Positions 1 through 16,201 of a DNA stretch of 57,259 nt are shown in pieces. This DNA is from a virus (taxonomy: Duplodnaviria > Caudoviricetes). The stretch is taken from IMG/VR virus record IMGVR_UViG_3300022074_000044, positions 1 through 57,259 of that record. One strand, written 5' to 3'. Made by a program: the position numbers and the translations under genes. Below the pieces are notes generated by a model. It was not told where the DNA came from. It did not search any database and worked only from the letters and a program-made list of their open reading frames with translations. Numbering within the stretch: position 1 is the stretch's first letter; each line of letters begins with the position of its first letter.

Positions 1-363
1 TCCCAATACTGAACAAGTATCAGAATGATAAATTGATGTATTTGTAAAAACTCTACGATGAAAAACTTTTTCCGAATCTACTAGATCTATATCTTTCTTA
101 AATGAATTATTGGCAGTCTTCTTTGCAAATTCTATTGCTGGTTCAAATTTATCTAATAAACTTATATGATCACAAACATTCATAGCATACATTCCATACC
201 CTATAAACCCAGGCCCACTACACCATTCTAATATATGATGGACTCTACCATATTGTTCGATAACTAAGTTTAAATATTCTGTAAAGAAATAATCTCCACC
301 ACCATTTGTTTGTGGCGTATAGAAAATATCACACCCCTTAACTCTAAAAATATATTCTATCAC
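1..363 (-). CDS. Class I SAM-dependent methyltransferase (3' end runs off the window; not in the ORF track)
   Basis: Manual translation from GTG at 363 (GTGA overlap with the upstream stop): MIEYIFRVKGCDIFYTPQTNGGGDYF...HILEWCSGPGFIGYGM...ISLLDKFEPAIEFAKKT, open to position 1. LEWCSGPGFIG is a SAM-binding motif I, followed by an acidic motif II. Confidence 0.8.
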   Translation of the reverse strand, partial: MIEYIFRVKGCDIFYTPQTNGGGDYFFTEYLNLVIEQYGRVHHILEWCSGPGFIGYGMYAMNVCDHISLLDKFEPAIEFAKKTANNSFKKDIDLVDSEKVFHRRVFTNTSIYHSDTCSVLG

Positions 364-572
364 TCTTCATCATCTTCAACTTCTACCATTTCTAAATCGT
401 GGATCATATCGTGAAATACTTCATGTTCACCAATTCGATAGAGGTGCTTCATCTCACCAGTGTTATCTTCTGATTCTCCTAAGTATGCGATATCTTCACA
501 TGTGTGTTCTCTTAGCCACGCCTGTAGCCTGAAGTGCATCAGATCTGCTTTGCTGGCGGTTAACTTGTCCAT
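360..572 (-). CDS. Small acidic hypothetical protein (70 aa)
   Basis: Strong SD (GGAGGAGG) before the ATG; its stop overlaps the next start; overlaps the 3' end of the kinase gene by 77 nt. Confidence 0.7.
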   Translation of the reverse strand: MDKLTASKADLMHFRLQAWLREHTCEDIAYLGESEDNTGEMKHLYRIGEHEVFHDMIHDLEMVEVEDDEE

Positions 573-1341
573 GTCCTCCTCCGAATAATGATTCTATGTC
601 ATCCTGATTTAGATAATAAGCGCCAGGATGTGTTACTGAAATTGCAGCAGCTCTATTTGCTAAATCAATAGACTTCTGCATGTTGGATGTTTTTAGAAAC
701 TCGTAAACTAAAGCGGCTAGAAATGTATCTCCAGCACCACAAACATCAAATACTTTGACTACCTGAGGCTTAAAGGTAAATCCACTCCACTTAACACCAC
801 GAGATCCAAGAGTGACAATCAGATGAGTGTCGTTAGGTAGATGGTTTTTGTCCAAGAGATCATATTCTTTCTTGTTTATTTTCCAGAATACATTATCTTT
901 ATGAAAAAGTCTACGCTTCTTAGTGTCTACGAACACTGGTCTGTTAAAATTGTGACACAGATGCCATAAATCATCATCAGTTATGTATCCTTTGTCATAA
1001 TCTGAAATAACAATTGCATCAGGATTCATGTGCATCATCGCCATCTTCACTTCAGCATTTGCAATCCTACTCACTTCTGGAGTTTCATCCAAACGCATCA
1101 ACTGATAACCACTATTTGTGTCTATGAATCTTGTTTTAGTAATCTCTTCCCTTTGTGAAAGTAGAACAGTATTAATACCAAATGCCTTGAGATTTAATTC
1201 AGTGTTTGCAGCCATGCCTGGCCTTTCTTCTATCTTAGTATGATCCAAGACAGGAACAGGTTGTTCTGGGCTGAGTCTATTACACTCCCCAAAAACGTAC
1301 TTATCTGTACACTTATCCCCTATAACAATTACGTTAGCCAC
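496..1341 (-). CDS. hldA: PfkB-family sugar kinase, HldE/RfaE kinase domain (heptose-7-phosphate kinase-like)
   Basis: VIGDxxxDxY...RLSPEQPVPV, ISDYDKG and the PfkB signature DVCGAGDTF; adjacent to the matching nucleotidyltransferase half. Confidence 0.85.
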   Translation of the reverse strand: MANVIVIGDKCTDKYVFGECNRLSPEQPVPVLDHTKIEERPGMAANTELNLKAFGINTVLLSQREEITKTRFIDTNSGYQLMRLDETPEVSRIANAEVKMAMMHMNPDAIVISDYDKGYITDDDLWHLCHNFNRPVFVDTKKRRLFHKDNVFWKINKKEYDLLDKNHLPNDTHLIVTLGSRGVKWSGFTFKPQVVKVFDVCGAGDTFLAALVYEFLKTSNMQKSIDLANRAAAISVTHPGAYYLNQDDIESLFGGGHGQVNRQQSRSDALQATGVAKRTHM

Positions 1342-1729
1342 GAATCTTTTTAATGATATCGGTTGTTGAATGATTTAGGCGAGGTAAGAACCTCACTTCT
1401 TTTGCAGCATACATACCAACTATGTCTCCACCTTTCCAATCATCACCCAGTAATAGTATATCAGGTGAATACAATTCTATCAACCCCTCTAGTTGTTTTC
1501 TATCATTGAAATATAATACTTCATCAATATATTTTATCGCTTGTAACATCGAAATTCTGTCACAAAGATTATTGACGGGCTTAGACGGACCCTTATCTTG
1601 ACGTATCTTTTCATCAGTATCCGTGGCGACTATGAGTTTGTCTCCTAAAGACTTTCCAACTTTGAATAATTCTATGTGGCCTGGGTGTAGGATATCGAAA
1701 GTTCCGTTGCACCATACTACTTTACTCAT
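1334..1729 (-). CDS. hldC: HldE/RfaE nucleotidyltransferase domain (heptose-1-phosphate adenylyltransferase-like)
   Basis: NGTFDILHPGH (HIGH-type motif), KGPSKP, PDILLLGDDW, STTDII. Confidence 0.85.
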   Translation of the reverse strand: MSKVVWCNGTFDILHPGHIELFKVGKSLGDKLIVATDTDEKIRQDKGPSKPVNNLCDRISMLQAIKYIDEVLYFNDRKQLEGLIELYSPDILLLGDDWKGGDIVGMYAAKEVRFLPRLNHSTTDIIKKIRG

Positions 1730-3210
1730 AATGTATCTACATGTAAAAGATATTCAGAATGAGGAACAGAGTTCTTCTGATTTTCTGGTAAAGTTTTGTT
1801 TATAAAGTTTTTAAGTCTTGGCAGACAACTCACATCTTTTTTCCAATATTGTTTTGGATTAATTTCACCAGTCATCAGTTGACATAACCAAACTTGCCAA
1901 TTAGTTCCATCAAAGAAAGAACCCACTTTACCAGTTTGAATAGTTTGTCTGTGTTGATCTTGAATTTCCTGTTCAAAGAAAATCTGTGAAGGAGTTTTTT
2001 TGTATTTAGATCTCACAAAATCCCAGAACTTACCTTTTCTCTGGCAGTATGAATAGTGCATACTTACATAATCAACAGCAGTTTCAAAACTAGCTTTCAT
2101 CTTAGTATGAAAGAAAGATGGATCTATCTTAGAATTATAACTACACCCATAAATGGATTCCTCAAGATACTCAACACCTCTTATCATCAGTGCAAGTCCT
2201 GTACTTTCTAATGGTTCAATGAATCCAGCACTTAATCCTATTGGAACTACATTACCTTTCCAAAAACTTTGACTATACTGTGGTTTCCAATCTAACAATC
2301 TCATGTCATCTGGTTTTATTCTTCCTTCCCAATGATCAGAGAATGCCTGTGCAACTTCATCTGGATCTACAACATCTTGATTGAAACAATATCCTGTACC
2401 AATTCTAGATCTAGTAGGAATCTTCCATATCCAACCATGTTCCTGTGCTGGGCAAGCAGTGTATGGGTGTTGTTCTCCATGATGTTTATATTCAACTCTA
2501 GCAGCAAGAGCTGCATTTATAAACAATCTATCACTACAATCAACATTTTTCTTTCCTATCAACATCTGTTTCCAACCAGTACAATCTATGAATAGATCAC
2601 CAGTAATTTTTGATCCATCATCTAATACCAATTCTTTTATATTAGATTCAGTTAAATCATCAGCATTTCCATCTCTAATAACATCTACAACATCGGATTG
2701 AATATATTCTTTCAAGTGTGGTATAGTATTCATTTGTAAAAATTGTACTAATTTACCACAGTCAATTTGAAAGGCATATGAGTCATGTATATAATCTGTT
2801 TCTATTCTATTTTTCATAGAAGAAACGTACATTGGAGATATTTTTTTTATATCATACTCATCTTGATATGATGACCAGAGATCATACAAAGGTACTTTAG
2901 TATCCCCTACACTTGTAAATGAAAATGGATGCCATATTGTCTTATCTTCCTTACCCCAGCCTGGAAATAAAATACCAGATTTAAATGTTGCATCTATTTC
3001 TTTCATCCAATCGTTAGGTTTGTATCCCATTTGTCTCATGACATTTGGAAAACTTAAAAGAGTTGCTTCTCCTACACCTACTCTCTCTGGTTCTGATTTA
3101 TCAATTACAACTACATCCATCATCTTTCCCCATCTACGAGAAAACCAAGATGCAGTAATCCAACCAGCGGTTCCGCCACCAACAATAACTAGTCTTTTAA
3201 TTCTCTTCAT
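1726..3210 (-). CDS. Flavin-dependent (tryptophan halogenase family) halogenase
   Basis: GGGTAG FAD motif, GVGEAT, ATFKSGI (catalytic Lys position), WIWKIP (WxWxIP), FIEPLESTG. Confidence 0.9.
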   Translation of the reverse strand: MKRIKRLVIVGGGTAGWITASWFSRRWGKMMDVVVIDKSEPERVGVGEATLLSFPNVMRQMGYKPNDWMKEIDATFKSGILFPGWGKEDKTIWHPFSFTSVGDTKVPLYDLWSSYQDEYDIKKISPMYVSSMKNRIETDYIHDSYAFQIDCGKLVQFLQMNTIPHLKEYIQSDVVDVIRDGNADDLTESNIKELVLDDGSKITGDLFIDCTGWKQMLIGKKNVDCSDRLFINAALAARVEYKHHGEQHPYTACPAQEHGWIWKIPTRSRIGTGYCFNQDVVDPDEVAQAFSDHWEGRIKPDDMRLLDWKPQYSQSFWKGNVVPIGLSAGFIEPLESTGLALMIRGVEYLEESIYGCSYNSKIDPSFFHTKMKASFETAVDYVSMHYSYCQRKGKFWDFVRSKYKKTPSQIFFEQEIQDQHRQTIQTGKVGSFFDGTNWQVWLCQLMTGEINPKQYWKKDVSCLPRLKNFINKTLPENQKNSVPHSEYLLHVDTL

Positions 3211-3722
3211 CTTTGAAAAAATAAACTCAATGTAAATCTAAATTTTGGTGCCCTAACAGATTGTGGTCTTATCGCATGAGGTATAGATCCATCAAATAAA
3301 ATAATCCTGCCTGGCACATATAAAGATGTATGTGAAATTTCTTTTACATTATTCGGATTATAGAATATAGTTTCACCATGCCATCCATCTCTCCAATCTA
3401 GATTAACATAATATAGAGCAACTTGCAGATCATGATGTATGTGCATGTAATGTACATCATCAGGTCTAATTAAATTACAAACAACTGATTGAAGATTTTT
3501 ATTTACGAACCAATCAGTCTCATTTATACACTTAGTAATATGGGGAAATACATTAGTTGATACCAATTCCTTAGCAGTCCACTCACTGTAAATATTAAGA
3601 TCATATTTTTCTGGCACATCAGTATCTTCCCAACCTAATTTGAAAGTTGAGTTGACACAAAATTCCCACAAAACATCTCTTATATCGAATGGAACTTTAT
3701 CATCAAAAACACTCAAATTCAT
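3207..3722 (-). CDS. 2OG-Fe(II) oxygenase (prolyl-hydroxylase-like)
   Basis: HIHHD...LYYVNLDWRDGWHGETIF...PGRIILFDGSIPHAIRP...RFTL matches the DSBH oxygenase pattern. Confidence 0.8.
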   Translation of the reverse strand: MNLSVFDDKVPFDIRDVLWEFCVNSTFKLGWEDTDVPEKYDLNIYSEWTAKELVSTNVFPHITKCINETDWFVNKNLQSVVCNLIRPDDVHYMHIHHDLQVALYYVNLDWRDGWHGETIFYNPNNVKEISHTSLYVPGRIILFDGSIPHAIRPQSVRAPKFRFTLSLFFQR

Positions 3723-4186
3723 ATTAGATTACCTGACAATACACATCTACCTTTATGATTACTAGGAGGTACACAATGTGGGAAATCACTATCCCATATC
3801 ACACAAATTCCTTGATTTGCATAGAAGAAAGTTGGTTCAATTGTTTCTGGATCTTCGCTAAAATGTAATGATGAACTACCCTCTGGAACCTGTATGTAGT
3901 AGGCAAATGAATATCTAAAATCTCCTTTATGTGTGTGCCATTTGATACCACCACCATCACGATACCAAACTCCCCATATACTTTCTAACTTAGTATCTGT
4001 TGTTTCTTCTATCCAGTTTATAAATTTTTGAACTGCTTGTGAACTTTCGACTCCTGTTGCTATGTGGCAATTATCTGATCTTTCTATGTAACTCTCTGTT
4101 ATAGTTGGTTGTGAATTAAGAATGGCCACCTTCAATTCACTGTTATCTTCTTGATATGGATATTCGTATTCTTTTATTTCTCTCAT
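3719..4186 (-). CDS. Putative 2OG-Fe(II) oxygenase (HxH type)
   Basis: WGVWY...WHTH...SFAYYI...WDSDFPHCVP...RCVLSGN; typical small phage oxygenase. Confidence 0.75.
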   Translation of the reverse strand: MREIKEYEYPYQEDNSELKVAILNSQPTITESYIERSDNCHIATGVESSQAVQKFINWIEETTDTKLESIWGVWYRDGGGIKWHTHKGDFRYSFAYYIQVPEGSSSLHFSEDPETIEPTFFYANQGICVIWDSDFPHCVPPSNHKGRCVLSGNLI

Positions 4187-5988
4187 CAGTTCTTTATTTC
4201 GATCATAAGACCGTACTCAGGTAGATAGAGGTATTCTATCAAACTATTTGCAAGAGTCCTTAGAGCGTCGTCTAGGGTCTCTACAAGAGGTTCTCCACCT
4301 AAGTTGAAAGATGTATTGAAAATTATAGGACATCCTGTCTTATCGTACCAAGCCTTAATTAAATTATAGTAATGAGGATTGACATCTTCTGTAACTGTTT
4401 GGATTCTACATGTATCATCAACGTGAATGATTGCTGGAATCTTTTCTTTGATTCCTTCCTGACATTTAACAGCATACATCATAAATGGTGTATCATCCAT
4501 ACCACGAAGATCAAACCATTCATGTACATATTCTTTCAATATTGATCCAGCAAACGGTCTGAAATATTCACGACGTTTGATAGTATTGACATGATCTTTT
4601 CCTTTTGGATCTCTAGGATCATACATGATAGATCTATTACCTAATGCACGAGGACCTGATTCTGATTTACCTTGGAACATTGCAACAATATTCTTTTTAG
4701 AAATCAGATCAATTGCATCTTCATGTGTAGCCTCGAAGATTCTAGTTGCATCGTAATAATTTGCAAGATCTGTAATATACTCAGGATCATATTCATGAAC
4801 AGGTCCGTAATATAGATCTTTCATGGGTGGGTGAACTTTCATATTCTTACTTACTTTCTGATAGTGCCAGTATGCAGCACCTATAGCTGTTCCAGCATCA
4901 TTACTTACTGGTTCTACAAATAAATTGATACCCTTTTCTTTCAGTTGAGGAAGATACCAATAGTTTGCAACACAGTTTAATCCATATCCACCAGAAAGAA
5001 CTACATTCTTTTCACCGCTTATCTCAACTGCTTTGAAGATAAGATCTAACACCATAGACTGTGATTCTGTTTGGATTGCATATGCCATATCTCTACGATT
5101 ATCTAACTGAGTTATATCTTTTACTGTACTTGGATCTTGAGGTTCTCTTAGTTCTAAGAATCTACCTTTGTTTACAACTGCACCATTAGGATAGGTAGGT
5201 ACAATAAGATCTCTATTAGTAGTGGCCCAATCACTTCTACCATCATAGTTTGTATAGATGTCTGGTATCTCACTATTCTCTTTTCCATATGGGAATAGTC
5301 CCATAGTCTTACCAGCTTCAATAGGAGCCCAACCACAGTATTGAGTAACTGCCTCATATGCTTTTACGATACCAGCAGAGTCATCTAATATTAATTCATG
5401 TGTTCCTTCTTCTCCTTCTCTGTCAGAAGTAAATTTATCAATTCTTACTGCACCCCAAGGACCTCTACCTCCTTGATGTTTATATAATGTCTTAAACTTA
5501 TCTGGATATTCACACTGGATGATAGTTTCCAACTCCCATGTCATTTCCTGTTCTCTATCAATCTCCATAGGGATAAATGTCCCTGCACCATCTACGATAA
5601 CAGATACAGCACTCTCAAATCCTGATCTAAAGAAAGCACAAGATGAATGGAGTTTATGGTGAATATGACTATAATCTACTACTTGTGGATGTTTGTAAAT
5701 ATCTGCTTTACGATCAATCAAACCTAGTTTTCTTGCAAGGGCAATGTAAATAGGTTCACCTGTAAAATCATTTGATCCAGCTTGATCGAGTGGCTGTGTA
5801 TGTGCAACCACAAGATAATCAAGTCTATCAGTATAGTCTAATATCTTGATCATGGATGCCAAAGGACCTCCATCATATTTTTTCCTAGATAACCTTTCTT
5901 CTTCAATCGAAAAGACCATCTCTCCATCTTTCAGTAAACAAACACCAGAGTTATGTCCTCTGGCAATTGCTGCAATCCACTGTGTCAT
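4186..5988 (-). CDS. O-carbamoyltransferase (NodU/CmcH family)
   Basis: GHNSG, EEERLSRKK, HHKLH, DGAG, GKTMGL, SGGYGLNCVAN, NDAGTAIGAA, GPRALGNRS, RPFA, NTSFNLGGEP. Confidence 0.93.
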   Translation of the reverse strand: MTQWIAAIARGHNSGVCLLKDGEMVFSIEEERLSRKKYDGGPLASMIKILDYTDRLDYLVVAHTQPLDQAGSNDFTGEPIYIALARKLGLIDRKADIYKHPQVVDYSHIHHKLHSSCAFFRSGFESAVSVIVDGAGTFIPMEIDREQEMTWELETIIQCEYPDKFKTLYKHQGGRGPWGAVRIDKFTSDREGEEGTHELILDDSAGIVKAYEAVTQYCGWAPIEAGKTMGLFPYGKENSEIPDIYTNYDGRSDWATTNRDLIVPTYPNGAVVNKGRFLELREPQDPSTVKDITQLDNRRDMAYAIQTESQSMVLDLIFKAVEISGEKNVVLSGGYGLNCVANYWYLPQLKEKGINLFVEPVSNDAGTAIGAAYWHYQKVSKNMKVHPPMKDLYYGPVHEYDPEYITDLANYYDATRIFEATHEDAIDLISKKNIVAMFQGKSESGPRALGNRSIMYDPRDPKGKDHVNTIKRREYFRPFAGSILKEYVHEWFDLRGMDDTPFMMYAVKCQEGIKEKIPAIIHVDDTCRIQTVTEDVNPHYYNLIKAWYDKTGCPIIFNTSFNLGGEPLVETLDDALRTLANSLIEYLYLPEYGLMIEIKN

Positions 5989-5989
5989 A

Positions 5990-7240
5990 TTAAATAGATT
6001 TTTTTTCTATAGTAATTGCGTCTTCTTTATCTGACTTTAAGAGATTTTTAATTTCAGATTGAAAACCTTTTTTATTTTTTGGTTTTTTCTTAGTTTCCAT
6101 AGTGAAACTAGGTTTAGGAGCTCCTGTGAAAGAAGGAGCATTTGATGTTGGAGACCAAGTAGGAGTTGGGGGTCCTTGTCTAGGAACATCAGTTGTTGGA
6201 GCTGGTGATGCAATTCCCTGTCCTAGTGCTGGTTGTTGTTGAGGCGAACAAGATTGTCCCTGATCTTGTTGTGGAGGAACGAAAGTACCAGTATATGTTT
6301 TTGGTTTACCTAATCTCTTTCTACAAGATGCAACAATCTCATCAACTTGTTTCTTACTCAACTCCATCGCTTCATCATTAAAACGATCAACTCTTTCATC
6401 CATAGTGATTCTGATTGGAGCATATTCTCTACGACCATCACCGACATCAATAATATCAAATTCCTTATGGCCAGGATAACTGATATTTTCTGGATATGTG
6501 GAACCAACCACGACAGTTGCAGTTTTATCAAATGCTCTCGCAATATGTTGACCCACACTATCACATCCTAAGAAATGATCTGCAACATCAATAACAGCAG
6601 CCCATACTCTCATATCACTTATCTGTGGTCTAGCGATAGGATACTTATCTTCATTCTCCTCAGTTGCAAAGTGATGTTCACTCATAATGATTACTGCATA
6701 ATCTTTTTTGAGTTGATTGACAATATCAATAGCACCTATAAGAGACATGCTTCTTGAAGTTGGGTCTGCAATAAACTCTCCTATTTGTTGAACTGATCTC
6801 CCAAATGGTTGAATGACAATTACTTTATCTTTCTTAGTTGTTGCTTTAATTTCTTCTACGACATTATAACCAGTAATGATCTCCATCTTATTGAGTTCTA
6901 CTCTTGGTTTAGGTAGTTCTCTAGGTTCATCTAATCCGTTGATTGCGATATCATATGCCTGTGCGATACTACATTTCTGATTGTAATAATCCCATACTCT
7001 ATATGGTTCTGGAGTCTCGCAGTCTCTCTGTATTATATGTTCTTGAAAAAGATTTTTATGCCAGTGATCATATACTTTACCATCTAGTGTTGGGTGTCCC
7101 TTGAAGAAGTCTGTACCACCCTCACATACAATAATAAAGTCATCATGGTTCTCTGCATATTTTTCAAATGCAGGGATTGAACTTATTACTCTGCCTGCAC
7201 CACCATTAACAAAAAACGCTTTCGATCTCATAGTTTTCAT
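5990..7240 (-). CDS. GT-B fold glycosyltransferase, GT9 (heptosyltransferase)-like, with Pro/Gln-rich C-terminal tail
   Basis: N-terminal GGAGRVISSIPA (compare GT9 GxGD), IVIQPFG, WAAVIDVADHFLGCDSVGQHIARAFDKTATVVVGST (GT9 DSgxxHxAxA motif). Confidence 0.7.
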   Translation of the reverse strand: MKTMRSKAFFVNGGAGRVISSIPAFEKYAENHDDFIIVCEGGTDFFKGHPTLDGKVYDHWHKNLFQEHIIQRDCETPEPYRVWDYYNQKCSIAQAYDIAINGLDEPRELPKPRVELNKMEIITGYNVVEEIKATTKKDKVIVIQPFGRSVQQIGEFIADPTSRSMSLIGAIDIVNQLKKDYAVIIMSEHHFATEENEDKYPIARPQISDMRVWAAVIDVADHFLGCDSVGQHIARAFDKTATVVVGSTYPENISYPGHKEFDIIDVGDGRREYAPIRITMDERVDRFNDEAMELSKKQVDEIVASCRKRLGKPKTYTGTFVPPQQDQGQSCSPQQQPALGQGIASPAPTTDVPRQGPPTPTWSPTSNAPSFTGAPKPSFTMETKKKPKNKKGFQSEIKNLLKSDKEDAITIEKKSI

Positions 7241-7258
7241 AATTCCTGTACTATATAG

Positions 7259-7921
7259 TCACATAAAAAATACCTGTGCCAGTCTGGGATATTCCTTAAA
7301 CATTGACCTGTTTAGGATAGCTCCATGAGTATGACGGCCTTCATATAATACCATTCTATTATATTTCATCTCACTTGTCCACTTTATGTCTTTTTTGATG
7401 TTGTAACCATTACCGTAGGGGTGATCTTCTATAAATTTATAGAAATCTGTGCCTCCATTACACTCATCTGGTTTGTTCAAATATACTAATGCAGCCCACT
7501 TAGTTTCCATATCATCTTTGTGGTGAGTATAACAAAATATATCTTTATTAAACTTTTCATTTATATCCTCATGTGTCGTATGGTTGACCATGAATTTCAT
7601 ATTGTCCCACCTATATTGGAACATTCCTTCAGAATATTCTATATTTTGCCACTCTTCATGTTGGCAGAGTTTGGTGAATACTGGTCGAAGATTGTCAATC
7701 ATCTCTTGATTTTCTTCTACCACTCTTGACCCTACAAGTCCACCACAATATTCTTTATCTGTTTTCAAATCACATGATAGAGCATAGTCTCTTATCTCAT
7801 CAGGATTTTTATAGAAGTCATCAATTACGAATACTTTTCGCCAACAATAACCAGCATCATTCCATCTAGAATGATCATAAACCCTGTATACCAAAGGATC
7901 TATAGAATTTATTTCAAACAT
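7259..7921 (-). CDS. 2OG-Fe(II) oxygenase-like protein (DUF6445-like)
   Basis: VIDDFYKNPDEIR N-terminus, HKD triad, WAALVYLN, GGTDFY, YNRMVLY, THGA, RLAQVFF. Confidence 0.75.
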   Translation of the reverse strand: MFEINSIDPLVYRVYDHSRWNDAGYCWRKVFVIDDFYKNPDEIRDYALSCDLKTDKEYCGGLVGSRVVEENQEMIDNLRPVFTKLCQHEEWQNIEYSEGMFQYRWDNMKFMVNHTTHEDINEKFNKDIFCYTHHKDDMETKWAALVYLNKPDECNGGTDFYKFIEDHPYGNGYNIKKDIKWTSEMKYNRMVLYEGRHTHGAILNRSMFKEYPRLAQVFFM

Positions 7922-7934
7922 AACCCCAGATAAT

Positions 7935-7960
7935 AAAAAAGATCCCCATAAGAGGATCTT
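7935..7960 (-). terminator. Intrinsic terminator-like hairpin
   Basis: Minus strand AAGATCCTC-TTAT-GGGGATCTT running into a T tract. Confidence 0.65.
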
Positions 7961-7987
7961 GAATTAACTTATATATAAAAGTTTACT

Positions 7988-8773
7988 TTACGCTGCGTTA
8001 GGTGGCATCCATGATTCTGCCTCTGTTGCATCTGCGTCTGGCTGTTTTGGTGGATCAGTGAAGTTAGGTTCAGCTGGGAACATTAAGTCAGCAAAGTTAG
8101 GGTGAACTCCAGCAGCTTGCATTTTGCTTGGAAGATCTCTTAACTGTTGACGATATGTTTTCCACTGATCTTTAAGTGAATCAGGCATATCTTCTGCAAT
8201 CTGACCATCACTATTAGAAAGAACATTGTTTCTATGAGCTCTAACGTGATCCCATGTTTTGTCTAGGTCAACACCATTTAACTTTTCTTTTGGTGTGAAT
8301 TCTTTTATAGAAATGTCATCAGGGCCTGCACTGCCTGGATTTGCAACTGTGATACTCTCGTAGTTGTAAATGTCATCTGGGAAGAGTGTTGAAGAATATG
8401 AGAATCTGTCATATCCATCAGAAGTTAGATCTGGAGATCCAGCATGGAATACATCACTTCCAGCACCTCTGTCTTCTTCCTTCTCGTTAACAACTGGGCC
8501 TCTGAGTTGACAGATGAGTGTGTGAAGATTTGATCTAGCACAGTCTACTTCGTACCACTGTACAACGTCTAGTGGCTTGGGACGACCATCTGCAATGTCA
8601 TCTTCTGTGAGAGGACCATAAAGTTCTTTTCCATCTGCACCAATTTGTAGATAGATTTTGTCTGGACCATCATAAGTTTGGTCTCTATACTTTCCATCAC
8701 TAAATGAGTGATCTGTTAGAAAGTCATTAGGTAATGACAGTTGCCATCCCTGTTCGATAATTTTAGTTGCCAT
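7988..8773 (-). CDS. Tail-fibre assembly chaperone-like protein
   Basis: C-terminal WDHVRAHRNNVLSNSD...WKTYRQQLRDLP...FPAEP matches the phage tail assembly chaperone motif (R..R+.LL..SD...W..YRQ.LRDLP); lies directly after the fibre-tip genes. Confidence 0.75.
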   Translation of the reverse strand: MATKIIEQGWQLSLPNDFLTDHSFSDGKYRDQTYDGPDKIYLQIGADGKELYGPLTEDDIADGRPKPLDVVQWYEVDCARSNLHTLICQLRGPVVNEKEEDRGAGSDVFHAGSPDLTSDGYDRFSYSSTLFPDDIYNYESITVANPGSAGPDDISIKEFTPKEKLNGVDLDKTWDHVRAHRNNVLSNSDGQIAEDMPDSLKDQWKTYRQQLRDLPSKMQAAGVHPNFADLMFPAEPNFTDPPKQPDADATEAESWMPPNAA

Positions 8774-8806
8774 TTTGGATTTCTTCGGGTTTTCTCCTTC
8801 GATTAT

Positions 8807-8814
8807 TATTTATA
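8807..8814 (-). promoter_or_regulatory. T4-type late promoter TATAAATA
   Basis: Exact consensus, intergenic, about 35 nt upstream of the ATG, with an AAGGAG between them. Confidence 0.8.
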
Positions 8815-8841
8815 AAAAAAGAGGGTCTATGACCCCCTTTT
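8814..8841 (-). terminator. Intrinsic terminator after the Cys-rich trio
   Basis: AAGGGGGTC-ATA-GACCCTCTT followed by a T run. Confidence 0.75.
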
Positions 8842-8861
8842 CAGATATTTTCTTGTTCGGT

Positions 8862-9650
8862 TTAGACGTATGTGATCTTAACAAGTCCAGATCCACCTTG
8901 TCCGCCTTGTCCACAACATCTACCACAGTAGTTACTGTTAGCACCTTGTCCACCGTGTCCGTATGGAACTGTCCAACAACCACAACGCATCCAACACTCT
9001 CTTTGTCCGTAGGAAACACCAAGAGTTCCGATGAATGGAGCACCTGTTGGTAATCCTTCGTTATAGAAGCAGTGACAGTTAAATCCGTCAGGTCTGTATG
9101 ACTCACCACCGTGGTTGCCCATTCCGAAGTCTCCTCCGTGAGCGCCAGGTTGCATACAACAAGTCTCGAATTCTGAGTAACAGTTTGCAGACCAGTCACC
9201 AGTTGCACAACCTCTAGGACCACCTAAGGCACAGAAGTTAGAGAGGTTGTATCCGTTTACATAGGAGTTACATCCGCAACACCCTGTACACTCTCTAGAA
9301 CAACAACGGTAAACACCAGCAGCACATACAGTGTATGAACATCCGCCAGTCGTTGAAATAGTTTTTGTATTATAATATCCACCACCAGCACCGTGCCAGT
9401 TTTGACATCTGTTACATGAACATGCACCGTGACCATTTCCTCCAGCACCCCATATTTCCCAAGTAATTCTTGTTACTCCAGTGGGAACTTGCCAGTTGCA
9501 ACAACAGCCAGGTGTGCAGTAACATGGATGACCATATACCCATTTTACGCACCAGTTAGAGAAAGATCCACTCTGAACCGCAGACGAAGGTATCGTCGTG
9601 TCAGTGATCTGAGTGTTTTCTATTCTTTTGTAACTCGAATAATTTGCCAT
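8862..9650 (-). CDS. Cys/Gly-rich virion (tail-tip/adhesin-like) protein, paralogue 3
   Basis: 30 Cys in 262 aa by manual count; Gly-rich scaffold WxVPTGV...WGAGGNG...GGGYY...GGQGGSGLVKITY. Confidence 0.7.
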   Translation of the reverse strand: MANYSSYKRIENTQITDTTIPSSAVQSGSFSNWCVKWVYGHPCYCTPGCCCNWQVPTGVTRITWEIWGAGGNGHGACSCNRCQNWHGAGGGYYNTKTISTTGGCSYTVCAAGVYRCCSRECTGCCGCNSYVNGYNLSNFCALGGPRGCATGDWSANCYSEFETCCMQPGAHGGDFGMGNHGGESYRPDGFNCHCFYNEGLPTGAPFIGTLGVSYGQRECWMRCGCWTVPYGHGGQGANSNYCGRCCGQGGQGGSGLVKITYV

Positions 9651-11031
9651 TGCTTCCCTTAGAAGTAAGTAATTTTAACTAGACCACCGCCACCAGTACC
9701 ACCTTGTCCACAACATCTACCACAATATGTAGTCATTGCGTTCTGTCCGCCGTGTCCATAAGGAACAATCCAGCAACCACAACGTACCCAACATTCTCTG
9801 ATAGACTGAGTGACTTGTGTACCAATCAAAGGTGCAGAGCCAGGTCTGTGACCATAGTGGTAACAGTGACACCAACCTCTGTAAGTATCATGTCTAGATG
9901 CGTTCCACACACCAGCATGATCTCCCATTCCAAAGTCTCCGTTGTTTGAGTTTGGACCTAAACAACAAGTATTAACTGATTGACAAGAGTTTGACCAACT
10001 TGGGTTGGCGTTTGCTCTACATCCACCGATAGCACAGAAGTTTGATAGGTTATATCCGTTCACATAAGATGAACAACCTGTGCAACCATAACATTCTCTA
10101 GAAAGACATCTATAAACACCAGCAGCACAAATACTGTATCCACAACCACCATTGGTTGTAATCATCTTGGAGTTATAGTATCCTCCACCAGAACTTGAGT
10201 AGTGTTGACATCTGTTACATGAACATGCACCAGTACCGTTTCCACCAGCACCCCAAGCCTGAATCCACATGTTCTGAACCCCTGTTGGGACTGACCAGTT
10301 ACAACAGCAACCAGCAGAACAACGACACATAATACCGAAAACCCATTTAACACCGTAGGTACAGTTCGGTGATTGACTGAAACTCGATGCCGATAAGACA
10401 TTCGATTCTAGTTGATCTCCGTGAACTTTTTTATATGATGAATAATTAGCCATTTTTTTTTAAATACCTAGACGTAAGTGATTCTTACAACACCAGAGCC
10501 GCCTTGACCGCCCTGACCGCAACAACGACCACAATATGTAGTCATCGCACCTTGACCACCTGTTGCATAAGGAGCAGTCCAACAACCACATCTCATCCAA
10601 CACTGTTCCAAGAGGTTTTCAACACCATTCGTTGACAAGAACGGAGCACCTGATGACATTGTGTTTGCAACCGCACCAGTACAGTGACAGTTCCAGTGAC
10701 CTGACCAACCTTTTTGGTGAGGAGCCATTGCAAAGTCTCCACCCCATGTTCCAGGCGATGCACAACACCAGTTAGTTGAACTACATCTAATAGACCAGTC
10801 AGGGTTTGCACAACCTCTTGCACCACCGTGAGCACAGAAGTTACTTAAGTTGTAACCATTAACATATGAATTACATCCATTACATCCGTTACACTCTCTA
10901 GAACAACAACGGTAAACACCACCAGCGCATACAGTATATGAACAACCAGCAGTCGTACTGATTGTTTTAGTATTATATGCACCACCAGAAGCACCTCTGT
11001 AGTGATGGCATCTGTTACATGAACATGCACC
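9406..11031. repeat. Exact 23-nt repeat CATCTGTTACATGAACATGCACC at 9406-9428, 10209-10231 and 11009-11031
   Basis: Read directly; encodes GACSCNRC in all three paralogues. A 32-nt exact repeat is also present at 9287-9318 and 10890-10921. Confidence 0.9.
9659..10453 (-). CDS. Cys/Gly-rich virion (tail-tip/adhesin-like) protein, paralogue 2
   Basis: 28 Cys in 264 aa; colinear with both neighbours (MANY start, GCCCNW, GACSCNRC, YVNGYNLSNFCA, CWxRCGCW, YCGRCCGQGG). Confidence 0.7.
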   Translation of the reverse strand: MANYSSYKKVHGDQLESNVLSASSFSQSPNCTYGVKWVFGIMCRCSAGCCCNWSVPTGVQNMWIQAWGAGGNGTGACSCNRCQHYSSSGGGYYNSKMITTNGGCGYSICAAGVYRCLSRECYGCTGCSSYVNGYNLSNFCAIGGCRANANPSWSNSCQSVNTCCLGPNSNNGDFGMGDHAGVWNASRHDTYRGWCHCYHYGHRPGSAPLIGTQVTQSIRECWVRCGCWIVPYGHGGQNAMTTYCGRCCGQGGTGGGGLVKITYF

Positions 11032-11253
11032 ATGTCCGTTACCCCCAGCACCCCAGACTTCGAGAGTTAATTTCTCAACTCCAGAAGGGACTTGCCAGTT
11101 GCAACAGCATCCAGGCGTACAGTAACATGGATGACCGTAGAACATCTTGACACAATAGCGAGGTGTCACCCCAGCTTCTAGCTTGTCGGGGTGAATATCA
11201 CCTGACGCTATTTGGTCAGATCTTACTTTTCGATATGATCTATAATTGGCCAT
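10468..11253 (-). CDS. Cys/Gly-rich virion (tail-tip/adhesin-like) protein, paralogue 1
   Basis: 29 Cys in 261 aa; same motifs; directly follows the tail fibre gene. Confidence 0.7.
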   Translation of the reverse strand: MANYRSYRKVRSDQIASGDIHPDKLEAGVTPRYCVKMFYGHPCYCTPGCCCNWQVPSGVEKLTLEVWGAGGNGHGACSCNRCHHYRGASGGAYNTKTISTTAGCSYTVCAGGVYRCCSRECNGCNGCNSYVNGYNLSNFCAHGGARGCANPDWSIRCSSTNWCCASPGTWGGDFAMAPHQKGWSGHWNCHCTGAVANTMSSGAPFLSTNGVENLLEQCWMRCGCWTAPYATGGQGAMTTYCGRCCGQGGQGGSGVVRITYV

Positions 11254-15796: not shown

Positions 15797-16201
15797 TTAC
15801 TTAGGTCCGATGCTGTTGTAAGCATAGTCGGGACCGTTGAATCTTATGACGAAAAAGCCATCATCATCTATGTAATAGTATAAGTTTCTGCGGTCAAAGC
15901 GAATCTGTTGGTATTTATCATTCGGATCATCTACAAGTTTTTTAACAGTTGCGATATCATTACGGATAACAGATGTTTTACCAACACCAACATCATATGT
16001 ACCATAATCTAAACCATCACCGAATTCTGGTATAGCAGTTCCATCGTTACGATAGAATTCTCCCATTTCTGTTGAAGCAGCACTAACTTTTGAAAATAAT
16101 AGCATGTCGTCTGCATCTCTTCTGAGTGCATACACGAAAAAACCCGACGATTCGGAGGGGTCAAAATTTCCAGAAATTGAGTTACTTAGCGTAAGTGCCA
16201 T
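15797..16201 (-). CDS. Hypothetical protein, probably virion-associated (134 aa)
   Basis: Clean ORF in the late operon between the Mtd-like gene and the tail fibre gene. Confidence 0.7.
   Translation of the reverse strand: MALTLSNSISGNFDPSESSGFFVYALRRDADDMLLFSKVSAASTEMGEFYRNDGTAIPEFGDGLDYGTYDVGVGKTSVIRNDIATVKKLVDDPNDKYQQIRFDRRNLYYYIDDDGFFVIRFNGPDYAYNSIGPK

What the first reader, a model, noticed from the sequence alone, without database searches (positions are those of the whole stretch)
1..11253. Candidate virion-protein decoration system: tailoring-enzyme operon attached to three Cys-rich tail-tip genes
Seen: directly downstream of the tail fibre, three Cys/Gly-rich paralogues and a chaperone, there is a run of closely spaced or overlapping genes: oxygenase, GT9-like transferase, O-carbamoyltransferase, two more oxygenases, flavin-dependent halogenase, HldC, HldA, a small protein and a SAM methyltransferase. 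Established: HldE makes ADP-heptose; GT9 enzymes and the AAH/TibC adhesin heptosyltransferases use it; NodU/CmcH enzymes carbamoylate sugars. Inference: this looks like a natural-product tailoring cluster with no scaffold synthase, so the scaffold may be the adjacent structural proteins (glycosylation of Cys/Ser/Thr, then carbamoylation, methylation or hydroxylation of the sugar, and halogenation of Trp/Tyr). The usual reading, host LPS remodelling, remains possible.
Basis: partly seen in the sequence, partly recalled or inferred. Interest (0 to 1): 0.82.

Follow-up and report, generated by a model that had tools for sequence, protein, structure and literature searches.

The report
Cyanophage tail-fibre-linked carbamoyl-heptose gene cassette
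A marine T4-like cyanophage carries, right behind its tail-fibre tip genes, enzymes to make the sugar ADP-heptose, attach it and carbamoylate it; these are the long-listed cyanophage "LPS genes", and whether they decorate the phage's own fibres or the host surface is still unproven.

Summary
The window is a 57-kb contig of a T4-like cyanophage about 81% identical to Synechococcus phage S-SSM7. The methyltransferase is cut by the contig end.

The three Cys/Gly-rich paralogues fold like the receptor-binding fibre gp24 of cyanophage Pam3. The "GT9-like" gene has no Pfam hit of its own, but its fold clearly matches family 9 heptosyltransferases.

The conserved core is GT9-like enzyme plus O-carbamoyltransferase plus ADP-heptose genes, placed between the tail-fibre and neck genes. 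It recurs in three cyanomyovirus genera and, with other fibre types, in distant T4-like aquatic phages. The halogenase, oxygenases and methyltransferase are lineage add-ons.

Points for a phage-made target:
- The GT9-like family was found only in phage DNA.
- It has its own T4 late promoter in 12 of 77 related loci.
- Marine Synechococcus LPS lacks heptose and Kdo.

Points against:
- The Cys-rich family is not linked outside the cyanophage clade.
- A terminator-like hairpin separates the enzymes from the fibre operon here.
- No glycan has been shown on any particle.

The genes were published in 2005-2010 as "LPS genes". This scan has reported the same cassette at least 16 times in other genomes. 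The target remains open.

The parts
16204..16662 (-). Tail protein with Mtd_N domain (start of the conserved fibre module); TATAAATA late-promoter motif at 16696-16703
   Evidence: PF18454 50 bits, phrog_9648; motif
15797..16201 (-). Small conserved protein of the fibre module (T4-GC295 orthologue)
   Evidence: phrog_8997; orthologues in S-SSM7, P-SSM2, S-CAM1
11308..15762 (-). Long tail-fibre protein, 1484 aa, three CBM5/12 modules near the N-terminus
   Evidence: phrog_9851, PF02839; 87% tblastn identity to S-SSM7 tail fiber protein
10468..11253 (-). Cys/Gly-rich fibre-tip paralogue 1 (261 aa; TNF-like plus glycine-rich domain fold)
   Evidence: PF21722 34.9 bits, phrog_4205; model pLDDT 77.5, best PDB match Pam3 fiber 7ypx_A at E 2.5e-7
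9659..10453 (-). Cys/Gly-rich fibre-tip paralogue 2 (264 aa)
   Evidence: phrog_4205; 55% identical to paralogue 1
8862..9650 (-). Cys/Gly-rich fibre-tip paralogue 3 (262 aa)
   Evidence: phrog_4205; PF21722 21.8 bits, below cut-off; 65% identical to paralogue 1
8807..8814 (-). T4-type late-promoter motif TATAAATA, 34 nt upstream of the chaperone start
   Evidence: the same motif lies within 150 nt upstream of the chaperone in 35 of 73 related loci
7988..8773 (-). Tail-fibre assembly chaperone
   Evidence: PF16778 39 bits, phrog_9740/4912
7939..7960 (-). Terminator-like hairpin (9 pairs, then a T run) between the chaperone stop and the first enzyme gene
7259..7921 (-). DUF6445 / 2OG-Fe(II)-oxygenase-like protein (220 aa); labelled 'minor coat protein' in PHROGs and RefSeq
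   Evidence: PF20043 35 bits, PF13640 weak, phrog_1644
5990..7240 (-). GT9-fold heptosyltransferase-like enzyme found only in phage DNA (416 aa; catalytic part 1-335, conserved disordered C-terminal tail)
   Evidence: Model pLDDT 86; VIA Z 22.8 to 18.1 for GT9 chains against 11.9 or less for other GT-B; D-S-x-G-Q-H motif aligned to WaaF/WaaC; phrog_8954
4186..5988 (-). O-carbamoyltransferase of the NodU/TobZ type (600 aa)
   Evidence: PF16861 198 bits, PF02543 85 bits; TobZ, NovN, GdmN at E 1e-43 to 2e-46
3719..4186 (-). Small 2OG-Fe(II)-oxygenase-like protein (155 aa)
   Evidence: PF13759 25.8 bits (below cut-off), phrog_81
3207..3722 (-). Small 2OG-Fe(II)-oxygenase-like protein (171 aa), nearest to the FlmC family; labelled denV in S-SSM7
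   Evidence: NF052475 E 1.3e-12, below cut-off; PF13640 weak
1726..3210 (-). Flavin-dependent halogenase (494 aa), same family as cyanophage VirX1
   Evidence: PF04820 279 bits; VirX1 6qgm E 3e-49
1334..1729 (-). HldC-like heptose-1-phosphate adenylyltransferase (131 aa)
   Evidence: TIGR02199 E 3.5e-29 (below cut-off), PF01467, phrog_7878
496..1341 (-). HldA-like heptose-7-phosphate kinase (281 aa)
   Evidence: TIGR02198 E 5.5e-40 (below cut-off), PF00294
360..572 (-). Small conserved protein (70 aa), function unknown
   Evidence: phrog_2020
1..363 (-). N-terminal 121 aa of a methyltransferase, cut by the contig end
   Evidence: phrog_35227; S-SSM7 orthologue noted as PF05175

Best explanation
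The region is the distal end of the tail-fibre module of an S-SSM7-like T4-type cyanophage, followed by a carbamoyl-heptose glycosylation cassette found only in phage DNA.

Inferred chemistry. Sedoheptulose-7-phosphate is converted to ADP-heptose. The steps here are the HldA-like kinase and the HldC-like adenylyltransferase. As in S-SSM7, GmhA, a cupin and an epimerase would lie beyond the contig end. The GT9-fold enzyme transfers the heptose to an acceptor, and the adjacent TobZ/NodU-type enzyme O-carbamoylates the sugar. The three 2OG-type oxygenases, the VirX1-family halogenase and the methyltransferase are lineage-specific extras that may tailor the product further.

Inferred target. The acceptor is most likely a late-made product of the phage itself. 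The best candidates are proteins of the fibre module: the Cys/Gly-rich receptor-binding tips or the long fibre. That would make the virion's host-recognition organ sugar-coated.

What is shown and what is not. Gene identities, folds, synteny and promoter motifs are shown. The donor sugar, the carbamoylation of the sugar and above all the acceptor are inferred.
For: 1. Fold. The GT9-like model (pLDDT 86) matches GT9 chains at Z 22.8 (3tov), 20.3 (WaaF), 19.8 (TibC, a protein heptosyltransferase) and 18.1-18.6 (WaaC). Other GT-B enzymes score 11.9 or less. A profile of 68 homologues aligns its invariant D227/H232 motif to WaaF/WaaC. Distant homologues pass the Pfam GT9 cut-off (L156 33.3 bits; P0264 22.7 bits).
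2. Conserved core. The carbamoyltransferase lies directly downstream in 57 of 57 near loci with enough flank and in 52 of 80 distant loci. HldC/HldA lie within 10 kb downstream in 29 of 36 near loci.
3. Fixed place behind fibre genes. In near loci the chaperone is upstream in 69 of 71, the tail fibre in 39 of 40 and a Cys-rich gene in 55 of 56. In distant loci 30 of 54 have recognisable fibre or chaperone genes within 6 kb upstream. The same order holds in S-SSM7, P-SSM2 and S-CAM1. A homologue in Vibrio N4-like phage SBP1 sits between two tail genes.
4. Phage-only distribution. At least 600 IMG/VR stretches matched in each of two scans. In one genome each of 185,579 species only 20 loci matched, all on metagenome-assembled contigs of scattered taxa.
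5. Late expression. TATAAATA lies 23-72 nt upstream of the GT9-like start in 12 of 77 near loci. I read it in L061 and L082; in L061 it follows a terminator-like hairpin. From the window's motif rate, my arithmetic expects about 0.2 such cases.
6. Host chemistry. LPS of marine Synechococcus WH8102 and CC9311 has neither heptose nor Kdo (review PMC4515613, passages).
7. Soluble enzymes only. By a crude hydropathy scan, none of the 18 window proteins has a transmembrane-like segment. Only 1 of 1045 ORFs within 6 kb of the gene in distant loci has three or more, and that one is a giant structural protein.
8. Candidate acceptors are fibre proteins. The Cys-rich proteins fold like Pam3 fibre gp24, which was detected in virions by mass spectrometry (PMC9608196, passages).
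Against: - No glycan on any phage particle has been shown. Everything about the acceptor is indirect.
- Here a terminator-like hairpin (7960-7939) lies between the chaperone and the first enzyme gene. No TATAAATA or ATAAATA lies inside 1-7987. Late co-transcription in this phage would therefore need read-through.
- Synteny within cyanomyoviruses can be simple vertical descent in a permissive site between modules.
- The Cys-rich family is absent from distant islands: 1 weak hit among 1287 ORFs.
- In the cyanophage clade the GT9-like enzyme ends in a conserved polybasic stretch and a short amphipathic motif (KGFKQE[IV]KNLLK). This could be a membrane-targeting helix, which would fit a lipid-linked acceptor.
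- Companion enzymes in distant islands are families typical of LPS and other glycan assembly: GT25, GT1, a GT8-GT9 fusion, sulfotransferase and APS kinase.
- Heptose genes T4-GC 304/305/307/308 also occur in S-SM2 (Sullivan 2010, PMC3037559, passages), which did not appear among the GT9-like holders.
- Pam3 gp24 assembles in E. coli with only its chaperone.
Confidence: 0.4

Rival explanations
1. Host envelope remodelling, the published reading. The cassette adds carbamoyl-heptose, and further sugars in larger islands, to the host's LPS or another surface glycan during infection. This would block superinfection, or stop progeny from sticking to debris.
For: - Sullivan et al. 2005 (PMC1079782, passages) and 2010 (PMC3037559, passages) call these LPS genes. 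A 2025 cyanophage paper still files such genes under cell-wall synthesis and modification (PMC12801897, passages).
- The nearest solved folds include the LPS heptosyltransferases WaaF and WaaC.
- Distant islands carry GT25, GT1 and GT8 enzymes.
- The conserved basic amphipathic C-terminal motif could tether the enzyme to the membrane.
- A terminator-like hairpin separates the enzymes from the fibre operon in this window.
Against: - Marine Synechococcus LPS has no heptose and no Kdo, the usual acceptor of inner-core heptosyltransferases.
- The GT9-like family was found only in phage DNA and shares only about 10-13% identity with solved cellular GT9 enzymes, so it is not a recent host-derived gene.
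- It is kept across T4-like phages that appear on contigs binned with very different host phyla.
- It has late promoters in 12 of 77 loci, whereas exclusion functions are usually early.
- The islands hold no flippase, ligase, polymerase or transporter.
Confidence: 0.3
2. Narrow form of the first reader's idea. The three Cys/Gly-rich paralogues specifically are the scaffold. They would be glycosylated on Cys/Ser/Thr and then carbamoylated, hydroxylated, methylated and halogenated.
For: - There is tight linkage in the cyanophage clade: 55 of 56 loci and 16 of 17 phage records.
- The paralogues are virion-fibre-like by fold.
- A nearly invariant N-L-S stretch and many conserved Ser/Thr/Cys residues are present.
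Against: - The GT9-like/carbamoyltransferase pair exists without this family in distant phages.
- The halogenase occurs in only 17 of 36 scorable near loci and the 220-aa oxygenase in 51 of 71, so these are optional.
- No precedent or test for Cys heptosylation was found here.
- Linkage within one clade is not independent evidence.
Confidence: 0.15
3. Another acceptor: phage DNA, by analogy with the GT-B glucosyltransferases of T4, or a soluble metabolite or nucleotide-sugar made for signalling or counter-defence.
For: - T4-like phages are known to glycosylate DNA with GT-B enzymes (my knowledge; also raised for cyanophage glycosyltransferases in PMC12801897).
- The cluster holds a methyltransferase and 2OG oxygenases, enzyme classes also used in DNA hypermodification.
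- All enzymes are soluble.
Against: - The oxygenases hit DUF6445, FlmC-type and 2OG-FeII_Oxy_5 families, not TET/JBP.
- DNA-modifying transferases of T4 are early or middle genes (my knowledge), whereas late promoters precede the GT9-like gene in 12 of 77 loci.
- The island always lies in the morphogenesis region.
- Heptosylated DNA is unknown to me.
Confidence: 0.1
4. No current function: 'stuffer DNA' filling the head of large-genome cyanophages, one option raised by Sullivan et al. 2010.
For: Raised as a possibility in PMC3037559 (passages).
Against: - The frames are intact and the catalytic motifs conserved across more than 3000 protein clusters down to about 26% identity.
- Gene order is conserved in three genera and in distant clades.
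Confidence: 0.03

Closest known systems
Cyanomyovirus 'LPS gene' string T4-GC 302-308 of P-SSM2, S-SSM7 and S-CAM1 (Sullivan et al. 2005 PMC1079782; 2010 PMC3037559)
   Same: These are the same genes in the same order. The window is about 81% identical in DNA to S-SSM7 over 95% of the region. The order GT9-like, carbamoyltransferase, HldC, HldA, GmhA, cupin, epimerase is shared.
   Different: The published reading is host LPS biosynthesis or stuffer DNA. The GT9-like gene is annotated only as hypothetical. The link to the fibre module, the late promoters and the phage-only distribution are not discussed in the passages I read. The window lacks the second, 369-aa carbamoyltransferase of S-SSM7.
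Bacterial autotransporter heptosyltransferases TibC/AAH
   Same: They share the GT9-type GT-B fold (TibC Z 19.8, rmsd 3.3 over 265 residues). They take ADP-heptose as donor, as the PDB entry title of 4rb4 shows. They glycosylate a surface adhesin protein in the cytoplasm (my knowledge).
   Different: Identity is only 12-13%. The match starts at TibC residue 90, so TibC's N-terminal part has no counterpart. Iron binding and the dodecamer were not tested. No autotransporter substrate is present, and no carbamoylation is known for that system.
LPS inner-core heptosyltransferases WaaC/WaaF (CAZy GT9)
   Same: The fold matches (Z 18.1-20.3). The C-domain D-x-G-x-x-H motif aligns. The gene is associated with an ADP-heptose pathway.
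   Different: The window protein does not reach Pfam PF01075. The family has an invariant Arg in its N-terminal G-G-A-G-R motif. From recall, WaaC has its catalytic Asp about there; this was not aligned here. The host LPS lacks the Kdo acceptor. The family was found only in phage DNA.
Pam3 tail fibre gp24 with chaperone gp25 (PDB 7ypx; PMC9608196)
   Same: The Cys/Gly-rich paralogues share the TNF-like plus glycine-rich domain fold (E 2.5e-7, 20% identity). Like gp24, they are followed by a fibre-assembly chaperone gene.
   Different: There are three paralogues with 10.6-11.5% cysteine. They come in addition to a separate 1484-aa long fibre. Pam3 is reported with no sugar enzymes or glycosylation (0 occurrences of 'glycosyl' in the paper).
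Virion glycosylation in mycobacteriophages (Freeman et al. 2023, Cell Host Microbe; seen only as a reference in PMC12801897)
   Same: Phage-encoded glycosyltransferases sit next to structural genes and modify virion proteins (my knowledge of that paper).
   Different: The transferase families and sugars differ. The targets there are the capsid and tail tube rather than fibres. The phage supplies no donor-sugar pathway. I did not read that paper.
VirX1, flavin-dependent halogenase of cyanophage Syn10 (PDB 6qgm; review PMC8407142)
   Same: The window's halogenase matches VirX1 at E 3e-49. It carries the GxGxxG and WxWxIP motifs, visible in the sequence.
   Different: VirX1's natural substrate is not given in the review passages I read. 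The activity and halide preference of the window's enzyme are untested.

Membership tests
CAZy GT9 / Pfam PF01075 heptosyltransferases | GT-B fold with GT9 members as nearest structural neighbours | tested here: met
   Foldseek E 5e-10 to 2e-8 for 3tov, TibC, WaaF and WaaC. VIA Z 22.8 to 18.1 against 11.9 or less for other GT-B enzymes.
CAZy GT9 / Pfam PF01075 heptosyltransferases | Sequence match to the family model above its curated cut-off | tested here: inconclusive
   The window protein has no Pfam family at E 0.01 or better and NCBIfam TIGR02201 at E 6e-4, 18.9 bits against a cut-off of 170. Distant homologues pass PF01075: L156 33.3 bits, P0264 22.7 bits, cut-off 22.
CAZy GT9 / Pfam PF01075 heptosyltransferases | Conserved C-domain D-(S/T)-G-x-x-H nucleotide-sugar motif | tested here: met
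   D227 and H232 are invariant in 68 sequences. They align to the DSGLMH motif of WaaF and the DTGLSH motif of WaaC (E 0.026-0.05).
CAZy GT9 / Pfam PF01075 heptosyltransferases | ADP-heptose as donor and heptosyl transfer activity | not testable with these tools
   Inferred only from the adjacent HldA-like and HldC-like genes and the GmhA and epimerase genes in relatives.
TibC/AAH protein heptosyltransferases | Iron-binding N-terminal part and dodecameric assembly; autotransporter acceptor | tested here: inconclusive
   The structural match covers TibC residues 90-391 only. Iron site and oligomer were not tested. No autotransporter is in the window.
NodU/CmcH/TobZ O-carbamoyltransferases | Both Carbam_trans_N and Carbam_trans_C domains above cut-off | tested here: met
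   PF02543 85.2 bits (cut-off 24) and PF16861 198.4 bits (cut-off 27). TobZ, NovN and GdmN match at E 1e-43 to 2e-46. The NodU equivalog model is far below its cut-off: 126 against 1000.
HldA / HldC (RfaE domains I and II) | Match to equivalog models TIGR02198 / TIGR02199 above curated cut-off | tested here: inconclusive
   137.4 bits against 345 and 101.5 bits against 181.5. These are the best-scoring families in each case. TagD-type cytidylyltransferase also scores for the second (76.9 bits).
Flavin-dependent (tryptophan-type) halogenases | PF04820 above cut-off, with GxGxxG and WxWxIP motifs | tested here: met
   278.9 bits against 21. GGGTAGW and GWIWKIP are visible in the translation. The GxGxxG motif is named in PMC8407142; the WxWxIP name is recalled.
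Glycine-rich-domain tail fibres (PF21722; Pam3 gp24 type) | Family model above cut-off and the TNF-like plus glycine-rich fold | tested here: met
   Paralogue 1 scores 34.9 bits against 24.3, paralogue 3 scores 21.8 (below) and paralogue 2 has no hit. The fold match to 7ypx_A is E 2.5e-7, and many BFVD glycine-rich fibre proteins match.
Phage tail-fibre assembly chaperones (PF16778) | C-terminal chaperone domain above cut-off, gene next to the fibre gene | tested here: met
   39 bits against 26.6 at residues 176-218. The gene directly follows the three tip genes.
Phage-encoded virion glycosylation systems | Glycan shown on a virion protein and dependent on the phage transferase | not testable with these tools
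   No experimental data exist for this phage or its relatives. Virion proteomes exist only for S-SM1, S-PM2 and Syn9 (PMC3037559). Those phages did not appear among holders of the cassette.

The most novel reading that the evidence does not exclude
T4-like aquatic phages run their own glycosylation line for the virion. They make ADP-heptose from a pentose-phosphate intermediate. Late in infection a phage-only GT9 enzyme heptosylates the receptor-binding fibre proteins, and the sugar is then O-carbamoylated. In some lineages it is also hydroxylated, methylated, sulfated or halogenated. This would be the first viral protein heptosylation system. It would also give the orphan VirX1-type viral halogenases and the cyanophage 'LPS genes' a natural role in host recognition or particle protection.
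Probability: 0.35. Interest if true: 0.85.

Novelty: new variant of a known kind. Interest (0 to 1): 0.55.

Why it matters
Cyanophages of this type are abundant in the ocean. In the largest genomes (S-SSM7, P-SSM2) these sugar genes account for most of the extra genome size, yet their function has been open since 2005-2010.

If the target is the virion fibre, host-range determinants of marine phages would carry phage-made glycans. That would change how receptor binding, particle decay and grazing resistance are modelled. It would also add a new protein-heptosylation enzyme family.

If the target is the host surface, a lytic phage would be installing a sugar that its host's LPS lacks. That is also unusual.

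Either answer is within reach with existing isolates and standard mass spectrometry.

Tried and rejected
- Predicted complex. The GT9-like catalytic part (1-335, alignment A1) was folded with Cys-rich paralogue 1 (alignment A2). Result: no verdict, score 0.00, controls not run. This counts neither for nor against binding.
- Sequence search of the GT9-like protein against the PDB. The single protein gave only chance-level hits. The profile of the distant clade A4 also found nothing useful. Only the 68-sequence profile gave the weak WaaF/WaaC motif match.
- Locus scans. The scan with the full alignment A1 failed because no conserved stretch was found. The single distant protein P0221 found nothing and P0154 found only 2 loci. 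Sub-alignments A3 and A4 worked.
- Fused forms. No protein of 729-2080 aa with the GT9-like part was found (weak evidence). One GT8-GT9 fusion of 558 aa exists.
- Host gene content. I could not get a handle on a marine Synechococcus genome, so the absence of heptose genes in the host rests on a review. The control panel shows only that PF01075 occurs in Synechococcus elongatus, E. coli, Caulobacter and Bacteroides.
- Expression class. The P-SSM2 time course (Lin et al. 2016, doi 10.1111/1462-2920.13104) is not held. The supplement of PMC7238727 lists the carbamoyltransferase and HldC orthologue groups only in its general orthologue table. They are not among the periodically expressed genes of its Table 1.
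- Literature searches. No paper was found for cyanophage + heptose + carbamoyltransferase (0 papers). Bacteriophage + heptosyltransferase + tail fiber + glycosylation gave 1 unrelated paper. Cyanophage + glycosylated + virion + tail fiber gave 6 papers, none on this by title and abstract start.
- GC content. The enzymes have lower GC (0.33-0.37) than the fibre genes (0.42-0.45). I rejected this as a sign of foreign origin. The rest of the window is also 0.35-0.40, and the fibre genes are rich in Gly and Cys codons.

Full report
**What the window is.** The window is the whole record held for this genome, a single 57,259-base contig. Its first 11.3 kb match Synechococcus phage S-SSM7 (Kyanoviridae, Lipsvirus) and S-SSM6a at 81% DNA identity over 95% of the length. 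All genes in the region lie on the minus strand. The rest of the window holds very large structural genes on the same strand.

**Check of the observation.** In transcription order the run is:
- an Mtd_N tail protein;
- a small conserved protein;
- a 1484-aa tail fibre with three CBM5/12 modules;
- three paralogues of 261-264 aa;
- a fibre-assembly chaperone (PF16778);
- a DUF6445/2OG-type oxygenase;
- a 416-aa protein with no Pfam hit;
- an O-carbamoyltransferase (both Pfam domains);
- two small 2OG-type oxygenases;
- a flavin-dependent halogenase (PF04820, 279 bits);
- an HldC-like and an HldA-like gene;
- a 70-aa protein;
- the first 121 residues of a methyltransferase, cut by the contig end.

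The three paralogues are 55-65% identical to one another. They contain 10.6-11.5% Cys and 15.7-18.3% Gly. RfaE domains II and I are the best NCBIfam families for the HldC-like and HldA-like genes, but both score below the curated cut-offs. In S-SSM7 the run continues with the rest of the methyltransferase, GmhA, a cupin labelled cysteine dioxygenase, a 2OG oxygenase, a nucleotide-sugar epimerase and a second DUF6445 protein. The neck genes gp13 and gp14 follow. The cluster is therefore truncated here.

**The GT9-like enzyme.**
- It has 3283 relatives in the large protein collection, nearly all unnamed. At 50% clustering there are 404 representatives with E at or below 0.001.
- A 68-sequence alignment shows invariant P79, Y80, D159, D227, H232 and Y255.
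- The profile's best PDB matches are WaaF and WaaC over the D-S-x-G-Q-H stretch, but only at E 0.026-0.05.
- The AlphaFold model is confident for residues 1-335 (mean pLDDT 86) and disordered after that.
- Foldseek ranks GT9 structures first: 3tov 5e-10, TibC 1.5e-9, WaaF 4.9e-9, WaaC 1.5e-8.
- The second aligner gives Z 22.8, 20.3, 19.8 and 18.1-18.6 for the same set, against 11.9 or less for all other GT-B enzymes.
- Distant members of the family pass the Pfam GT9 cut-off.

"GT9-like" is therefore confirmed by fold. The fold does not tell an LPS heptosyltransferase from a protein heptosyltransferase such as TibC.

**The Cys/Gly-rich paralogues.** The model of paralogue 1 (pLDDT 77.5) best matches the fibre of cyanophage Pam3 (7ypx_A, E 2.5e-7). 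Next come tail-tip chains of mycobacteriophage Bxb1 and the glycine-rich domain of ALK/LTK. Among predicted viral structures the best matches are proteins of S-CAM3 and P-SSM2, then many "glycine-rich domain" fibre and minor tail proteins. [quoted passage not shown] It was detected in virions by mass spectrometry and is assembled by the chaperone gp25. The three paralogues followed by a chaperone therefore look like receptor-binding fibre tips with their assembly factor.

**Co-occurrence and synteny in cyanophages.** In the collection of 50,697 phage records the GT9-like protein is found in 26 records: S-SSM7, S-SSM6a, Sf-FS3, S-CAM1, S-CAM3, P-SSM2, P-SSM5, four single-cell marine virus contigs, Aeromonas phage HJ05 and Vibrio phage SBP1. 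The Cys-rich protein is found in 17 records. Sixteen of these also hold the GT9-like gene. The 17th is another contig of the single-cell virus AG-345-E02, whose GT9-like gene lies on a separate contig.

S-SSM7, P-SSM2 and S-CAM1 belong to three genera and share one order:
- Mtd_N tail protein, small protein, tail fibre;
- Cys-rich genes (one to three);
- GT9-like, carbamoyltransferase, HldC, HldA, GmhA, cupin;
- epimerase on the opposite strand.

In P-SSM2 and S-CAM1 structural genes follow again.

An IMG/VR scan with close relatives gave 80 loci, the best of at least 600. tblastn with the window's proteins gave these counts among loci with enough flank:

| Feature relative to the GT9-like gene | Loci with it | Loci scorable |
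|---|---|---|
| Cys-rich gene upstream | 55 | 56 |
| Chaperone upstream | 69 | 71 |
| Tail fibre upstream | 39 | 40 |
| Carbamoyltransferase directly downstream | 57 | 57 |
| HldC and HldA within 10 kb downstream | 29 | 36 |
| Halogenase downstream | 17 | 36 |
| 220-aa oxygenase upstream | 51 | 71 |

Of the 56 loci scored for Cys-rich genes, 36 have three copies, 4 have two, 15 have one and 1 has none detected. The invariant core is fibre, tip genes, chaperone, GT9-like and carbamoyltransferase. The halogenase and oxygenases are optional.

**Distant relatives.** A scan with a sub-alignment of distant homologues (31-41% identical to the window's enzyme) gave another 80 loci.
- The carbamoyltransferase follows the GT9-like gene in 52 of 80 loci, at a median distance of 15 nt.
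- A profile of the Cys-rich family hits one ORF of 1287, weakly.
- Fibre-type or chaperone genes lie within 6 kb upstream in 30 of 54 scorable loci. These are Peptidase_S74 fibres, PF16778 chaperones and giant structural proteins.
- Neck genes gp13-gp15 lie within 6 kb downstream in 29 of 65.

A recurrent minimal form is: fibre, chaperone, GT9-like, carbamoyltransferase, HAD hydrolase, epimerase, cupin, PfkB kinase, gp13. Larger islands add GT1, GT25, sulfotransferases, an APS kinase, FkbM-type methyltransferases and 2OG oxygenases. In Vibrio N4-like phage SBP1 a homologue lies between two tail genes, without heptose genes.

The enzyme pair is therefore older and wider than the Cys-rich family. 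It keeps its place behind the host-recognition genes whatever their type.

**Distribution outside phages.** A scan of one genome for each of 185,579 bacterial and archaeal species found 20 loci. All lie on metagenome-assembled contigs labelled with scattered taxa, from Polynucleobacter to archaea. The family thus looks phage-only. Its identity to solved cellular GT9 enzymes is about 10-13%.

**Expression signals.**
- The exact T4 late-promoter motif TATAAATA occurs four times in the window, all on the coding strand. Two copies lie 34 nt upstream of the chaperone gene and of the Mtd_N gene. The total count is not above chance (4 against 3.99).
- All ten ATAAATA matches are also on the coding strand.
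- None lies inside the enzyme run 1-7987.
- A terminator-like hairpin with a T run lies between the chaperone stop and the first enzyme gene.
- The motif upstream of the chaperone is kept in 35 of 73 related loci.
- In 12 of 77 related loci, those where the GT9-like gene directly follows the chaperone, TATAAATA lies 23-72 nt upstream of the GT9-like start.
- In L061 the order is hairpin, TATAAATA, start codon. In L082 the motif lies about 35 nt before the start.
- From the motif's rate in the window I expect about 0.2 such cases in 77 stretches of 60 nt. This is my arithmetic. The 12 loci are related and represent roughly four or five architectures.

The GT9-like gene is thus very likely a late gene in those lineages. 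In this window late expression would need read-through of the hairpin.

**Host chemistry and the published reading.** Sullivan et al. 2005 proposed that the P-SSM2 clusters alter the host surface during stalled infection (PMC1079782, passages). Sullivan et al. 2010 wrote that it is not known whether the LPS genes of S-SSM7 and P-SSM2 are functional or stuffer DNA. They noted that T4-GC 304, 305, 307 and 308 co-occur in P-SSM2, S-SM2 and S-SSM7 (PMC3037559, passages). S-SM2 is not among the holders of the GT9-like gene. A 2025 paper still files such genes under cell-wall synthesis and modification, or DNA glycosylation (PMC12801897, passages). A review states that LPS of marine Synechococcus WH8102 and CC9311 has neither heptose nor Kdo (PMC4515613, passages). 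That removes the usual acceptor of inner-core heptosyltransferases. It also explains why the phage brings its own donor pathway. Virion proteomes exist only for S-SM1, S-PM2 and Syn9, which lack the cassette. My searches found no paper that tests or proposes heptosylation of phage fibres.

**Other observations that bear on the target.**
- A crude hydropathy scan finds no transmembrane-like segment in the 18 window proteins. Only one ORF of 1045 near the gene in distant loci has three or more, and it is a giant structural protein. The islands thus encode soluble enzymes only, with no flippase, ligase or transporter.
- Against the fibre reading, the cyanophage GT9-like enzymes share a C-terminal tail. 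It has a Cys motif, a Pro/Gln-rich linker, G-A-P-K-P-x-F-T, a polybasic stretch and K-G-F-K-Q-E-(I/V)-K-N-L-L-K. This could be a membrane-targeting amphipathic helix or a docking peptide.
- The halogenase matches VirX1 of cyanophage Syn10 at E 3e-49. The review passages I read give no natural substrate for VirX1 (PMC8407142).
- The carbamoyltransferase matches TobZ, NovN and GdmN, which carbamoylate hydroxyl groups of sugars or macrolactams (the substrates are from my knowledge).

**Verdict.** The genes and their arrangement are real and ordinary for this phage lineage. The gene set has been in GenBank since 2005-2010. The most likely chemistry is synthesis of ADP-heptose, transfer by the GT9-fold enzyme and O-carbamoylation of the sugar.

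The acceptor is unknown. My odds are:
- about 0.4 for a late phage product, most likely a fibre-module protein (of which about 0.15 for the Cys-rich tips specifically);
- about 0.3 for a host envelope glycan;
- about 0.1 for DNA or a soluble product;
- little for no function.

Its detailed chemistry on Cys, Trp or Tyr has no support.

The scan has reported the same cassette in at least 16 other genomes, with the same open question. Those notes are not independent evidence. I saw them after forming my own reading. One of them gave me the identifier of the Pam3 paper, which I then read.

Noticed in passing
window 5990-6235 (residues 336-416 of the GT9-like protein): The disordered C-terminal tail carries motifs conserved across cyanophage homologues despite variable linkers. 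The motifs are a Cys motif (SCSP/CCD/CPTCPP), GAPKPxFT, a polybasic stretch and a terminal KGFKQE(I/V)KNLLK. This may be a membrane-targeting amphipathic helix or a docking peptide. Distant clades (about 300 aa) lack it.
   Followed up: partly
window, whole length: All 10 ATAAATA and all 4 TATAAATA motifs lie on the minus (coding) strand, several just upstream of gene starts (8807, 16696, 22472, 42915). This fits T4-type late promoters, although the total count is not above chance.
   Followed up: partly
window 7259-7921 and 3207-3722; L001 (S-SSM7): Two database labels look wrong. The DUF6445/2OG-oxygenase-like protein is called 'minor coat protein' (phrog_1644, S-SSM7 SSSM7_119 and SSSM7_134). 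The FlmC-type 2OG-oxygenase-like protein is called 'DNA endonuclease V / denV' (phrog_274, SSSM7_124).
   Followed up: no
L001 15756-16865 (S-SSM7) versus window 3719-4186/3207-3722: S-SSM7 has a second, 369-aa Nol-like carbamoyltransferase between the two small oxygenase genes. The window lacks it, and several IMG/VR relatives vary in the same place.
   Followed up: no
window 16695-19400 (minus strand, alternative frame): A 901-aa open frame overlaps the 1546-aa structural gene 16708-21348 in another frame. Its Leu/Ser-rich translation looks like a by-product of the gene's composition, not a gene.
   Followed up: no
window 23716-51926: Three giant minus-strand genes of 2505, 2997 and 3000 aa lie upstream of the fibre module. 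They are probably baseplate or fibre structural proteins. They were not analysed.
   Followed up: no
L088-L167 (distant IMG/VR loci): Many distant islands combine the GT9-like/carbamoyltransferase pair with sulfotransferases, an APS kinase fused to DUF2061, FkbM methyltransferases, GT1 and GT25 enzymes, and RCC1-repeat proteins. This suggests a sulfated, carbamoylated oligosaccharide. A HAD hydrolase (possible GmhB) is present in 32 of these loci but was found in only 9 of the 85 earlier loci (L001-L085).
   Followed up: partly
protein P0264 (558 aa, from the representative library): This is a natural fusion of a GT8 domain (PF01501) with the phage GT9-like domain. It implies that at least two sugars are added to the same acceptor in some lineages.
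   Followed up: no
L005 (Vibrio N4-like phage SBP1) and L004 (Aeromonas phage HJ05): Short homologues of the GT9-like enzyme (26-27% identity) occur in non-cyanophage podovirus-size genomes. In SBP1 the homologue lies between a tail-fibre gene and a tail gene, without heptose-pathway genes.
   Followed up: partly
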